Assembly: GCF_001447785.1 (NCBI RefSeq)
Contig: NW_015168654.1
Span: 1,996,031 to 2,060,030, forward strand
DNA: 64,000 bases
Direction: 5' to 3'
Source of the DNA: Gekko japonicus
Lineage: Eukaryota
Positions 40,479 to 50,593 of this stretch are shown here, in pieces. Both the position numbers and the translations under genes were made by a program. The notes under the pieces are model-generated. The model searched no databases and was not told where the DNA came from. It saw only the letters and a program-made list of their open reading frames with translations. Every line of letters starts with the position of its first letter. Within the stretch, counting starts at the first letter, position 1.

Positions 40479-40552
40479 TCAGCAGTCCATGCAGTCATTC
40501 TCGTACCAACCCGTGGTACTATCAGTGCCAAAGTATCTGTCTCCAAAGTTGC
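40479..40552 (-). CDS. UCKL1: UCKL1-like exon 15 (terminal)
   Basis: [24 protein letters not shown] then TGA. Confidence 0.93.
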
Positions 40553-43500
40553 CTAACGGGAGAGAAAGGCACGTTTCTTACTGATGTGACAGAGGAAACA
40601 GAAGGCTCGGCCCTTACCCGTCAAAAGCCTAGACATTAAACCAGCTTCTCAAGCAGTGGCAAATCCTTAGCTGGGTCCTCCCTCCCCCACTGAAGGGCAG
40701 ATTCTATGTCTTCCTCTAAAAGAGCCGCTACCGACCCTCATGTATTTTCAACCCCCTCTCCTCCACAAAAAGGGAGACCAGAGCTTGAGGAACTGCTTCT
40801 TCAAGGCATGCTGCTAAGCTGCAAGGGCCTTGCTTGGTGGAAAACAATGCTGCAGGCAAGACCAAATAAAAAAATCAAATGAGATAAGGCTTCAGAGGGC
40901 CGGCACCTTGTCTGGGCCAGCTCCCACTTACCAATGCCAGGAATAATGTGGAACTCCTCGTTGACTGTCTTGTCCACAGCGGTGGTGATGATACGTACAC
41001 AGGGGAAGGCATAGGCCACTGAATGGACCCCCATCTCAGCCATCAACAGTGAAAGGAGGAAGATCTTGTCCTCCTGCACGTCATGATCCTGCGGCATATT
41101 TATTTACATTATGTATATACCTCCAGCCTTTCTCCTGACAGTCAGGATCCAGGCTGGGGAGGAACAATGCAATATAAAAATAATAATCTGTTTAAAATAA
41201 TTAACAAAGATGGTCAACAAGAAGTAATTTAAAGACAGAAGCAACGTATCCAACGATGAGCTCCCTCTGCCCAGATTACAGGCAGGGGCTGAGGCTCAGG
41301 GAAAGGGCCTCTAATCCTCACCATCTAAAGTTAAAAAGGGCCAGGGAATAGGCGATGTGAAAGAGCACTACCCAAGAGAGCCGCTGCCAGTCTGACAATA
41401 TTGACCTTGATGGGCCAAGGGTCTGATTCAGTCTAAGGCAGCTTCATGTGTGTGCAGGACAGAAAGCCACGTGTCTCCCCAAACTGATTCCTGAATACAC
41501 ACACCCTGAAGGCTCCAAGCCCAAACAGGGAGATGGGAGACCCACAGCCCCAATCCCATGACATCAGTTTCGATGAAGCCCTTGTATCCTAACCCTCAAC
41601 CTACGGCACACGAGTCTGTTAGTGCCTCCAGCCCCGGCCGCAATCCTGACACCCACACCCCTCCGTGTGTCTCCACATTACATGCCACGGGACCTTCACT
41701 TACGAGCAGCACCCGCACAGCCATCATGGCAGCAGCCCCTGTGGATACGGTGCTGTCCATCAAGATGACGTAATCCTCGCTGATCTCCTTGGGCAGCCGG
41801 AGGTAGTGCAGCTAGTAGGAGGACAAGGGGACCCGTGTCAGCCAGTCCAGGCCATCCCGCGTTTCCCACGTTTCCCTGCCCCCACCCCAGTCTCCACACC
41901 TCAGGCTCCCCCGTGTCGTGGTTGGTCTGGATGAGGATCTTGCCCAAGCGGATGTCTTTGCAGACAGCGGTGAGGGCCTGCTCCATGGTCTCGCCTGCAC
42001 GCAGGATGGAGACACCAGTGATCTGGAGGGGAGAGAGCAGCGGCCACTGAGGTTTGGCTGGATAACCCGTCTTAGCCCCTGCGCCCCCACCCCTCATCAA
42101 CACCCCTCCCCTAAGCTCTTTTACTGATGGCCGTTTACCATAAAACTCCCCAAAGGTGCATACAGCTAGTGGTGCATACAGCTAGTTAAAAACAAACAGT
42201 CCGTTTGACACAGAAACACAATAAACGCTGAGTCAATAAACCCTGAAACTTCAGACTGAGATCCAGCGTGTTGGAATGCCCACCAAGGATCTGAGACCCA
42301 GGTCTGAACCTTCACTCCACTGAGCAAGCAGTTGCTGGGTGCCCTTGGGGCCAGTCCCAACCCCACAGGGCTGTGAGGACAGAACAGGGAACAGGGATAT
42401 AAGCTGCTCTGAATCCTCACTGGGGAGAAAAGGGGGGTGTCCAATTGTCTGGCCCAGCACCAGGCAGCTTCCTGTGTTCCTAGGCCCTCCCAGCCTCCCC
42501 CCAAATTCTCCAGTCCTCTGAACCTCTGCGCCCTCCCTCCACAGACCTGGAGAGGAGGAGGAGGGAGGAGAGAAGAGTGGCTCACCCGCTGCCTGTGGAA
42601 ACGCTTCCCCTCATAGACCGTCCCCTGTGGCGTCTCCACAGTCACTGGCTGCAAAAAACAAGACAGACCGCTATTGCTTGGGGAAAGAGAACGGAAGTGG
42701 AGGAAGTGCTCTCGCCAGCACGAGGCCAGGGATCTAGACGCAGCGTCAGGACCACAGAGAATAGTTAGGAGGCCTCTGGCACCCCAAAGGAAGAGTGATG
42801 ACTAGAAAGGATGCAATACCTTGAGTGGCAGGAAGGAGAGAGCGTGCTCTATCAGCAGACGCATAAGACGCTTGGAGTAGAAGATGAACTCATCCCTGGT
42901 AGTATCTTTGTTCCTATGGAGGAAGCAGGAAAAGTGGGCTATTCCCTCGGGCTCTTCCCATTTCCCAACCCTAGAAGATATTCTGGAACAAGGCAGGCCA
43001 AGCCACGCTGATTCTGCCCTGACTTGCTTCTATAATGGGCAGGGTCTCCAGACCAAGGGACCCTCCCCAGCAGCTACTATTCTAGCTTCCTGAAGCCACA
43101 AAGAAAAAGGAGGACCAGTGCTGCAGCATACCCAGTACCTGATGATGGTGTGCATCCCACGGACTTGTGGCGTGCTCTCCAGGACGCTCAGCGTCTTCGG
43201 CAACGGCTGTCCCTGGTGGGCTGAGGCCAAGGCTGCTCTGTTTGGGAAGCGAAAAGTACATGGTTCATGCGAAAGAGAGGGAGTTTTGTATGTAAGACCC
43301 CCCCCCCAATTACCTCCTTCTCAAGGGTCAAGGAGTGCCTGCAGACTGCATGAACATTCATGCCTCAATGGAACTCCTCTGCCACCCTATCTATGAAGGC
43401 CCTGGACCCTCCCATAGCTCAGCCCAAATTCCCTCTCTGTGCAAAGAGGCAAAGGCACAGTTGTTCAGCGTAATGAAAAGAGGACCACCTCTCACAAAAT

Positions 43501-49500: not shown

Positions 49501-50593
49501 AGAGATGCATAAAGCAAAAAACAGTAATGATTACAAAAAGCAGAAGAATTCTCTCTAACCTATCTTGTGAACTGTACAGCATGTTCCTTATACTGTGACC
49601 CCCAGAGCCACCCAGAACCTTTTTCTTCTCTCATCTGTAGAACAACTGCTAGCAATCAAGCCCCATCGATCCAGTGCTACAATGAGCAGCAAGCATGGGT
49701 GCTGTTTCCACACCAGATGCTCTCAAAATCCCAGCAGATGCTTTGGAACCAGCCAGCCAGAACCAAAGGTCTAGTCAACACCCAGTATTTTAGCCTTTCT
49801 CTTATGGATGAGGGAACTACAGCCTCCAAGAAAGGACAAGGGGAGTTCTACGATCCAGTATGTGGATCCAGAGAAGAAGCACTGGAAGGAGGACACAGAG
49901 GGAAAGAGAGATATCTAGCTGGCTCTGTGAGGACCAGTCAATTGAGGCAGAGCCCCCAGTCAGTCAGGAAAGCTGAGGAGATGCGAAGGCAGTCTTTGAG
50001 CTCCCTTACCGATCACAAAGGCTTCCTTGAAGGGTGTGCCTGTCTCGTTGTACCAGGGGGGCCGTCCTGCGGTGTAGATGGTCCGCTTGCTGGTCCTGAG
50101 CAGTGGCGGTTCCGTCTTTGACTGGCTTGTGGTCCTCTTCCTCGGCGAAAGCGAGGGGGTGAGGGGTAGGCAGGAGAGGAGAGTATCCAGCGAGTCATCC
50201 CTCCTCCCGCTGTGTAGGAGAAAGGGAGGGCGAGAATACATTAGAGAGAAAGGAGATCGGCCGCTGTTCGCTTCCACCCCACCCTTCCAGCCAGAGCCGC
50301 GCCCTTTATTTTGCAACGTGGCCCGCGCGGCTTCCTCCTCCTCCCTTCGCAGCGGCTCGTGAAAACCCGCTTCAAAATGCCTGAGGAGCCTCCAGCCATA
50401 TGAAGAGCAAATTTTTTTCTCGCCGCCACCCACATCAAGGAAGCAGGCAGCTCACTATGCAGAAACAACAAAGGGGAACTCCAATCCCGGCAACTGCCGC
50501 GAATTGCGCCCCTTTTACCTCCTCGTCCAGCCCTCCCCCCGGACTTGACCTGCCACGCCGCGCCTCCTCAGCAGCACCGCCTGGAGCCGCCAT
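40479..50593 (-). CDS. UCKL1: Uridine-cytidine kinase-like 1 family protein (UCK + UPRT domains), 15 coding exons, about 526-536 aa; probably a paralog of canonical UCKL1
   Basis: Exons 2-15 join in frame with canonical GT-AG sites. Walker [37 protein letters not shown] domain with [22 protein letters not shown] and [15 protein letters not shown]. Confidence 0.93.
40932..41088 (-). CDS. UCKL1: UCKL1-like exon 14
   Basis: [52 protein letters not shown], 157 bp. Confidence 0.95.
41704..41811 (-). CDS. UCKL1: UCKL1-like exon 13 (PRPP-binding loop)
   Basis: [36 protein letters not shown], 108 bp. Confidence 0.95.
41900..42022 (-). CDS. UCKL1: UCKL1-like exon 12
   Basis: [41 protein letters not shown], 123 bp. 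Confidence 0.95.
42586..42648 (-). CDS. UCKL1: UCKL1-like exon 11
   Basis: [21 protein letters not shown], 63 bp. Confidence 0.92.
42820..42913 (-). CDS. UCKL1: UCKL1-like exon 10
   Basis: [31 protein letters not shown], 94 bp. Confidence 0.95.
43139..43237 (-). CDS. UCKL1: UCKL1-like exon 9
   Basis: [33 protein letters not shown], 99 bp. Confidence 0.93.
43817..43836 (-). CDS. UCKL1: UCKL1-like alternative microexon 8b (20 nt, RKLRWHI)
   Basis: ttcaccag|AGGAAGCTACGCTGGCATAT|gtgagg; same phases as 8a. Confidence 0.75.
44666..44872. mobile_element. hAT-type MITE (family A)
   Basis: TIRs plus a perfect 8-bp TSD, CTCCCTAC (44658-44665 / 44873-44880). Confidence 0.88.
45080..45096 (-). CDS. 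UCKL1: UCKL1-like microexon 8a (17 nt, REITVR)
   Basis: gcccag|CGTGAAATCACGGTCAG|gtatga; phase 0 in, phase 2 out, exactly bridging exons 7 and 9. Confidence 0.85.
45578..45639 (-). CDS. UCKL1: UCKL1-like exon 7
   Basis: [21 protein letters not shown], 62 bp. Confidence 0.93.
47071..47260 (-). CDS. UCKL1: UCKL1-like exon 6
   Basis: [63 protein letters not shown], 190 bp. Confidence 0.95.
47426..47497 (-). CDS. UCKL1: UCKL1-like exon 5
   Basis: [24 protein letters not shown], 72 bp. Confidence 0.93.
48588..48758 (-). CDS. UCKL1: UCKL1-like exon 4
   Basis: [57 protein letters not shown], 171 bp. Confidence 0.95.
48883..48989 (-). CDS. UCKL1: UCKL1-like exon 3 (P-loop)
   Basis: [36 protein letters not shown], 107 bp. 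Confidence 0.95.
49143..49346. mobile_element. hAT-type MITE (family A)
   Basis: TIRs CAATGTTCCCTCTAAG / CTTAGAGGGAACACTG; 8-bp TSD GTTCTGAT/GTTCTGAC. Confidence 0.88.
50010..50209 (-). CDS. UCKL1: UCKL1-like exon 2
   Basis: [11 protein letters not shown]...[46 protein letters not shown]; strong acceptor, |GTAAGG donor. Confidence 0.93.

What the first reader, a model, noticed from the sequence alone, without database searches (positions are those of the whole stretch)
40479..50593. Intact UCKL1 paralog at the TRIM54-DNAJC5G locus, apparently an ohnolog absent from the human locus
Seen: a 15-exon UCK+UPRT gene with no internal stops in exons 2-15, directly upstream of DNAJC5G and TRIM54. Established (recalled): human UCKL1 neighbours DNAJC5 on 20q13, while human 2p23 has TRIM54-DNAJC5G-SLC30A3 with no UCKL gene between them. 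Inference: this is the whole-genome-duplication sister of UCKL1, kept in squamates and lost in the mammalian lineage, giving reptiles an additional, probably uncharacterised pyrimidine-salvage enzyme. Residues such as [25 protein letters not shown] and the [12 protein letters not shown] tail differ from human UCKL1 as I recall it. Here it is tandem with the DNAJC5 family gene, whereas the human pair is convergent.
Basis: partly seen in the sequence, partly recalled or inferred. Interest (0 to 1): 0.7.

Follow-up and report, generated by a model that had tools for sequence, protein, structure and literature searches.

The report
Ancient UCKL1 twin, missing in mammals
This gecko gene is an intact, spliced twin of the pyrimidine-recycling enzyme UCKL1, likely born in the early vertebrate genome doublings, kept from sharks to birds and likely lost in mammals; databases give both twins the same name.

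Summary
The gene is real: 15 exons, 526 codons, no internal stop, identical to RefSeq's Gekko japonicus 'UCKL1'. RNA reads show splicing from exon 6 to 15. The genome holds a second, mammal-type UCKL1 on another scaffold, 80% identical, with the same intron phases. The tree has two clades (100/98): the window's, with sharks, gar, zebrafish, coelacanth, amphibians, turtles, crocodile and birds, and the one with mammals. A translocated ortholog and a squamate-only duplicate are rejected. The locus MPV17-UCN-TRIM54-DNAJC5G-[gene]-SLC30A3 lies in the published CRH/UCN tetraparalogon. Kinase residues are intact; three UPRT catalytic-site residues are changed, so it is likely a kinase only. Mammalian loss is indirect (0 mammals in two truncated top-120 lists; monotremes untested). 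The scan's index held no relevant earlier finding. Real, apparently undescribed, but an ordinary kind of event.

The parts
50550..50593 (-). exon 1 (ATG at 50593)
   Evidence: N-terminus shared with other gecko models; no RNA lay
50010..50209 (-). exon 2
   Evidence: 194-nt counterpart in the second copy
48883..48989 (-). exon 3: P-loop (K91) and catalytic Asp113
48588..48758 (-). exon 4: D135, Y163, H168 (ribose and base specificity)
47426..47497 (-). exon 5
47071..47260 (-). exon 6: conserved arginines of the kinase lid
   Evidence: 24 reads at the exon 7 edge run on into exon 6 letters
45578..45639 (-). exon 7, end of kinase domain
45080..45096 (-). micro-exon 8a, 17 nt (REITVR), interdomain linker
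   Evidence: included in reads of X20, X21, X22 and a contig of X11
43817..43836 (-). alternative micro-exon 8b, 20 nt (RKLRWHI); including both shifts the frame
   Evidence: its donor is spliced to exon 9 in 4 reads of X22; same pair of micro-exons in the second copy
43139..43237 (-). exon 9, start of UPRT-like domain
42820..42913 (-). exon 10
42586..42648 (-). exon 11
41900..42022 (-). exon 12 (T406 where active UPRTs have Arg)
41704..41811 (-). exon 13 (PRPP loop with Ser434 where active UPRTs have Pro)
40932..41088 (-). exon 14
40479..40552 (-). exon 15 coding part (N504 where B. caldolyticus UPRT has Asp200) and stop
39714..40478 (-). 3' UTR ending at an AATAAA (39719-39714)
   Evidence: RNA contig reaches 39726 and read depth falls below 39687
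32412..32985 (-). neighbour: DNAJC5-family gene (DNAJC5G by synteny), coding exons seen
5710..5913 (-). neighbour: MuRF-family TRIM exon (TRIM54 by synteny with UCN and MPV17)

Best explanation
The window holds an intact, spliced paralog of UCKL1 that likely arose in the early vertebrate whole-genome duplications, is present from sharks to birds, was likely lost in mammals, and is predicted to work as a uridine/cytidine kinase with a likely non-catalytic UPRT-like domain. Shown: gene structure, splicing of exons 6-15, a second mammal-type copy in the genome, two deep clades, and position in the UCN-TRIM54-DNAJC5G block. Inferred mechanism: the N-terminal domain transfers the gamma-phosphate of ATP to the 5'-OH of uridine or cytidine (Asp113 as base, Tyr163/His168 reading the base, Asp135/Arg217 selecting ribose), as in UCK2 and human UCKL1. 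The C-terminal domain keeps the UPRT fold but lacks three catalytic-site residues, so it would serve as an oligomerisation or nucleotide-sensing module. Two alternative micro-exons change the linker between the domains (6 or 7 residues). Inferred history: the ancestral order was DNAJC5-TRIM-CRH/UCN-(MPV17)-UCKL; an inversion of the four-gene block would have placed this gene in tandem with DNAJC5G in sauropsids; mammals would then have lost it while keeping the other twin plus UCK1/UCK2.
For: Structure and identity to XP_015270642.1. Seven intron joints from exon 15 up to exon 7 seen in 3 raw-read RNA runs and 1 contig set. Second copy on G000:C6877, 405 of 504 aligned residues identical, 12 of 14 exons compared of equal length and all phases equal. 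Tree of 48 proteins: window clade 24 rows and mammal-type clade 18 rows, each 100/98; gecko, Tiliqua, Microcaecilia, Pygocentrus and Mastacembelus each have one gene in each clade. AU test rejects 'window gene with mammals' (p 1e-38) and 'squamate duplication' (p 2e-5). Three gecko scaffolds repeat DNAJC5-family > MuRF TRIM >< CRF-family (C8944, C499, C16357); MPV17 and an SLC30A gene flank the block. PMC9353778 calls dnajc5/dnajc5g and trim54/55/101 markers of tetraparalogous regions of 1R/2R origin and puts uckl1 on the crh2 paralogon. Ten kinase-site residues are invariant in 24 of 24 window-clade rows (roles from PMC9163393); human UCKL1 has measured kinase activity (PMC9246348). No mammal among the best 120 hits of either window-type query.
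Against: Loss in mammals is not shown: searches list only 120 of 1942 and 120 of 3290 matches, no mammalian genome could be searched, no monotreme protein was seen in any list, and the human gene order is recalled. The 114 of 114 mammalian proteins that are mammal-type were mostly fetched with mammal-type queries, so they are biased. The AU test does not reject a duplication after the shark split (p 0.205); no shark mammal-type, lamprey or amphioxus sequence was in the tree, so 1R versus 2R is undated. Trees used LG+G4 without the mixture model, with long outgroup branches. No enzyme assay exists; an Arabidopsis dual-domain relative was reported to have both activities (PMC9246348 citing its ref. 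28), and Drosophila UPRT works in vivo despite a degenerate uracil site (PMC4536494). The inversion rests on gene order in fish without strands.
Confidence: 0.8

Rival explanations
1. It is the ortholog of mammalian UCKL1, moved next to DNAJC5G.
For: RefSeq names it 'uridine-cytidine kinase-like 1'; same domain layout.
Against: The genome has another copy that is 92-94% identical to marmoset and opossum UCKL1, against 75-78% for the window gene; AU p 1e-38.
Confidence: 0.01
2. It is a small-scale (segmental) duplicate of early jawed or bony vertebrates that landed in a paralogous block, not a genome-doubling product.
For: The split is not dated against lampreys; a split after sharks is not rejected (p 0.205); only two of four paralogous blocks keep a UCKL gene.
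Against: Both twins sit in blocks with matching DNAJC5, TRIM and CRH-family paralogs that are published as 1R/2R; sharks fall inside the window clade at 99-100 support.
Confidence: 0.07
3. The gene survives in monotremes or marsupials, as CRH2 does in basal mammals, so the loss is eutherian or therian rather than mammalian.
For: CRH2 of the sister block is reported in basal mammals (abstract of PMC9353778); my lists are truncated.
Against: No marsupial or monotreme in 240 top rows of window-type queries, while many marsupial mammal-type proteins are on record.
Confidence: 0.25
4. It is a true bifunctional enzyme with uridine kinase and UPRT activity.
For: UPRTase domain scores 261 bits, is strongly conserved, and aligns to T. 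gondii UPRT without large gaps; dual activity was reported for an Arabidopsis relative.
Against: Arg of the pyrophosphate loop is Thr406, the PRPP-loop Pro is Ser434 and the Asp200 equivalent is Asn504 in 24 of 24 window-clade rows; Asp200 is proposed to activate uracil, and a cited title calls the Pro catalytically important (PMC3570474). UPRT activity of human UCKL1 was not reported as of PMC9246348.
Confidence: 0.15

Closest known systems
UCKL1 (human Q9NWZ5 family; second gecko copy G000:C6877)
   Same: UCK + UPRT-like layout, intron phases, both linker micro-exons, all kinase residues, same degenerate UPRT site.
   Different: Separate clade; 15 near-fixed differences; lies in the UCN/TRIM54/DNAJC5G block, not the CRH2/TRIM101/DNAJC5 block; compact (10 kb against more than 51 kb).
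Zebrafish chr20 'uckl1' (XP_021324336.1) and Xenopus laevis uckl1.L (NP_001088880.1)
   Same: Orthologs: same clade, 86% and 89% identical; a zebrafish uckl1 is listed among the genes of the chr20 mpv17 interval with slc30a2, uts1, trim54, dnajc5ga (PMC3711038).
   Different: Named as if they were UCKL1; I found no functional study. That XP_021324336.1 is the chr20 gene is inferred.
Teleost uckl1a and uckl1b
   Same: Same family.
   Different: On zebrafish chr 8 and 23 with dnajc5aa/ab (Table_2 of PMC9353778); a carp protein named '1a' groups with the mammal-type clade. They are 3R copies of the other twin.
UCK2 / UCK1 (PDB 1xrj, 1uej, 2jeo)
   Same: Kinase domain and active-site residues.
   Different: No UPRT-like domain, no long N-terminal extension.
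Toxoplasma gondii and Bacillus caldolyticus UPRT (1bd3, 1i5e)
   Same: Fold and most of the sequence motifs.
   Different: Arg, Pro and Asp of the active site replaced by Thr, Ser and Asn.
Ohnologs lost in mammals (CRH2, TRIM101; 'elusive genes' of PMC5901865)
   Same: Same kind of event, in the same paralogon for CRH2 and TRIM101.
   Different: This gene is kept in birds, so it is outside the 'elusive' definition; no text hit in 13 of that paper's 19 text supplements.

Membership tests
UCKL1 family (UCK-UPRT fusion) | N-terminal PRK/uridine kinase domain plus C-terminal UPRTase domain in one chain | tested here: met
UCKL1 family (UCK-UPRT fusion) | Shared intron positions with UCKL1 | tested here: met
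   exons 2-15 have equal phases; 12 of 14 equal length
Ortholog of mammalian UCKL1 | Groups with mammalian UCKL1 in the tree | tested here: not met
Uridine-cytidine kinase (active) | P-loop Lys, Asp62, Asp84, Tyr112, His117, Arg166 equivalents (UCK2 numbering) | tested here: met
   K91, D113, D135, Y163, H168, R217 in 24 of 24 rows
Uridine-cytidine kinase (active) | Measured phosphorylation of uridine/cytidine | not testable with these tools
   shown only for human UCKL1 (PMC9246348)
UPRT (active) | Conserved Pro in the PRPP loop, Arg binding PRPP, uracil-activating Asp | tested here: not met
   S434, T406, N504; that T406 matches M. tuberculosis Arg102 is my inference from the motif
1R/2R ohnolog pair | Both copies lie in paralogous blocks | tested here: met
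   window block shown in gecko; sister block shown for reedfish in Table_2 of PMC9353778; not shown for the second gecko copy (scaffold break)
1R/2R ohnolog pair | Duplication after tunicates and before the jawed-vertebrate split | tested here: inconclusive
   best tree fits, but a post-shark split is not rejected (p 0.205); no cyclostome sequence
Gene lost in mammals | Absent or decayed at the syntenic mammalian locus | not testable with these tools
   indirect only: 0 mammals in two truncated lists

The most novel reading that the evidence does not exclude
An unnamed fourth vertebrate uridine-cytidine kinase gene, under strong constraint for over 450 million years (86-91% identical from gecko to shark, gar, zebrafish and frog), was lost specifically in mammals, and frogs may have lost the other twin, so that Xenopus 'uckl1' and human UCKL1 are hidden paralogs; its conserved but catalytically altered UPRT domain and switchable linker make it a nucleotide-sensing regulator of pyrimidine salvage.
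Probability: 0.25. Interest if true: 0.5.

Novelty: new member of a known kind. Interest (0 to 1): 0.3.

Why it matters
It corrects orthology: non-mammalian 'UCKL1' entries mix two genes, the Xenopus laevis gene named uckl1 is not the ortholog of the human one, and zebrafish appears to have three genes. That matters for anyone using fish, frog or chick to model UCKL1 in cancer or nucleoside-drug activation. It adds one more marker to the CRH/UCN paralogon and offers a natural comparison for the open question of what the UPRT-like domain does. It does not reveal a new kind of system: ohnologs lost in mammals are common.

Tried and rejected
Exon 1 donors at 50556 and 50518 give frameshifts; including both micro-exons gives early stops. 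A third UCKL copy near DNAJC5B or TRIM63: the UPRTase search found only C8944, C6877 and an unspliced UPRT-like locus on C3431 (lower bound). Linking the second copy to DNAJC5: C6877 holds only that gene, and C16357 shows no UCKL exon in its 197.7 kb; TPD52 and PRPF6 searches hit other scaffolds and did not help. No RNA holder was on record in the run search; raw-read runs were laid instead. RNA support for exons 1-6 is left open. Full inclusion of micro-exon 8b is not shown: the reads at its donor reach at least 41 letters, past the 20-nt exon, so they may be partly spliced. ESM Atlas only returned the known family. The scan's index gave one unrelated bacterial locus. Paper searches found no paper describing this paralog; searches were for enzyme residues. 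Supplements: PMC5901865 files 1-12 and 19 gave no hit, files 13-18 and one large text file were not searched; its tables may use gene ids only. The T. gondii catalytic paper PMC117517 was not held.
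Full report
Observation. The minus strand carries a 15-exon gene from ATG at 50593 to the stop at 40479: 1581 nt, 526 residues, no internal stop, all introns GT-AG. The protein is identical to P0001, which NCBI lists as XP_015270642.1, 'uridine-cytidine kinase-like 1', Gekko japonicus. Pfam gives a PRK/uridine kinase domain at 80-267 and a UPRTase domain at 309-512. Three raw-read RNA runs of the same species label and one contig set were laid on 39000-45860: every joint from exon 15 up to exon 7 appears, the 17-nt exon 8 is included, 24 reads at the exon 7 edge run on into exon 6 letters, and coverage ends near the AATAAA at 39719.

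A missed feature. A 20-nt micro-exon at 43836-43817 can replace the 17-nt one in frame; both together shift the frame. Its donor joins exon 9 in 4 reads of one run, though these may be partly spliced. The second gecko copy has the same pair at the same place, and both forms occur in both clades among the 630 proteins held (window-type 158 short, 62 long; mammal-type 64 short, 47 long). The switch is therefore older than the duplication.

Second copy. Searching the genome with exon 6 gave three matches: the window, an 83% match on C6877 and a weak 47% match not followed up. C6877 holds exons 2-15 of a complete gene, 405 of 504 aligned residues identical, with equal phases. It is 92% identical to marmoset and 94% to opossum UCKL1, against 78% and 75% for the window gene.

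Distribution and tree. The best 120 of 1942 hits to the window's exon 6 are all window-type: named rows are lizards, snakes, birds, crocodilians, turtles, frogs, coelacanth and a catfish; none is a mammal. The best 120 of 3290 hits to the coelacanth ortholog add gar, bowfin, sturgeon, teleosts, two sharks and a chimaera; again all window-type and no mammal. The best 120 of 2203 hits to the C6877 exon are all of the other type, 90 of them named mammals by my count of the list. A tree of 48 hand-picked proteins (LG+G4, 530 columns, six invertebrate outgroups) gives two clades, each 100/98, with cartilaginous fish at the base of the window clade. On 21 of these rows the AU test rejects the window gene grouping with mammals (p 1e-38) and a squamate duplication (p 2e-5), but not a split after sharks (p 0.205). 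X. laevis uckl1.L (NP_001088880.1) and a zebrafish protein (XP_021324336.1) are in the window clade.

Synteny. On C8944 the order is MPV17(+), CRF-family gene(+), MuRF TRIM(-), DNAJC5-family(-), this gene(-), SLC30A-family(+) about 24 kb upstream of the ATG. The names UCN, TRIM54, DNAJC5G and SLC30A3 rest on this order and on recalled human 2p23. The triplet DNAJC5 > TRIM >< CRF recurs on C499 and C16357. PMC9353778 (passages and Table_2 rows read) treats these families as markers of tetraparalogous 1R/2R regions, lists uckl1 only for the crh2 block, places zebrafish uckl1a and uckl1b on chr 8 and 23, and gives for reedfish the order uckl1, crh2, trim101, dnajc5 (97.75-97.96 Mb) and mpv17, ucn, trim54, dnajc5g. 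PMC3711038 (passages) lists slc30a2, uckl1, mpv17, uts1, trim54, dnajc5ga as candidates in a 200-kb interval of zebrafish chr 20, and in Phoxinus the window-type protein and Mpv17 have consecutive accessions on one contig. I infer that UCKL first lay beyond the CRH/UCN gene, that an inversion of MPV17-UCN-TRIM54-DNAJC5G made the tandem layout (also implied in a bird by a fused UCKL-DnaJ model, P0094), and that the recalled human convergent DNAJC5-UCKL1 pair results from loss of TRIM101 and CRH2 between them. Strands in fish were not available, so this is inference.

Mechanism. The UCK2 residues named in PMC9163393 (passage; Asp62, Asp84, Tyr112, His117, Arg166) map to D113, D135, Y163, H168, R217 and are invariant in 24 of 24 window-clade rows, as are the P-loop Lys, F134 and three further arginines. 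Human UCKL1 phosphorylates uridine and cytidine (PMC9246348, passages). The gene is therefore likely an active kinase. In the UPRT-like half, alignment with T. gondii and B. caldolyticus enzymes shows Thr for the Arg after the ILIQ motif, Ser for the PRPP-loop Pro and Asn for Asp200; PMC3570474 (passages) describes Asp200 as activating uracil and cites a paper titled on the catalytic importance of that Pro. Mammal-type UCKL1 and most invertebrate rows share the degeneracy. A regulatory or scaffolding role is my inference; against it stand the reported dual activity of an Arabidopsis relative and in vivo activity of Drosophila UPRT (PMC4536494, passages).

The P-loop Cys is ancestral; the Gly is derived in tetrapod mammal-type genes. 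Ser434 is fixed in the window clade but also seen in one of two mammal-type fish rows with a residue. Fifteen positions separate the clades at 90% or more.

Novelty. The gene is annotated, generically, in many genomes. Seven paper searches found no paper that describes it as a separate ohnolog or as lost in mammals; subscription journals and ortholog databases were not searchable. PMC5901865 (abstract, 13 of 19 text supplements searched) defines its gene set as missing from birds too and gave no hit. PMC12294303 and PMC4158802 (passages) added nothing. Verdict: a real, intact, probably undescribed paralog and a useful orthology correction, of a familiar kind. Interest 0.3.

Noticed in passing
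G000:C4484:740900-749100 (L047:3522-5337) and other scaffolds; not in the window: 37 of 47 TPD52 matches in the genome have the same score and length. Of 8 places fetched, five hold a 1.8-kb element, 99.2-99.9% identical, carrying one TPD52-family exon with intron flanks, starting TC, ending in a hairpin plus CTAG before a T, one copy after an A: a very young Helitron-like element that captured a host exon. The Helitron signature is recalled.
   Followed up: partly
window 43817-43836 and 45080-45096; G000:C6877:31124-31140 and about 25437-25456: Two alternative micro-exons (17 and 20 nt) in the kinase-UPRT linker, conserved in both paralogs.
   Followed up: yes
P0537 (NP_001088880.1): The Xenopus laevis gene named uckl1.L is the window-type paralog; no frog appeared among the 120 best mammal-type hits although caecilians did.
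   Followed up: partly
G000:C16357:34816-117342: The gecko keeps the DNAJC5, TRIM101-like, CRH2-like block; a DNAJC5 exon is partly duplicated at 34816/35120, probably an assembly slip.
   Followed up: partly
G000:C3431:253629-257946: Two long unspliced UPRTase matches 3.4 kb apart, possibly an intronless or duplicated UPRT gene.
   Followed up: no
window 44668-44870: A ~200-nt intronic repeat with very high RNA depth (over 500 per strand in one run), with look-alike sequence at about 49150-49345 and 11555-11750.
   Followed up: no
window 51595-52489 and 9492-10112: Fragments of LINE reverse transcriptase (CR1-like, by recall) on the minus strand.
   Followed up: no
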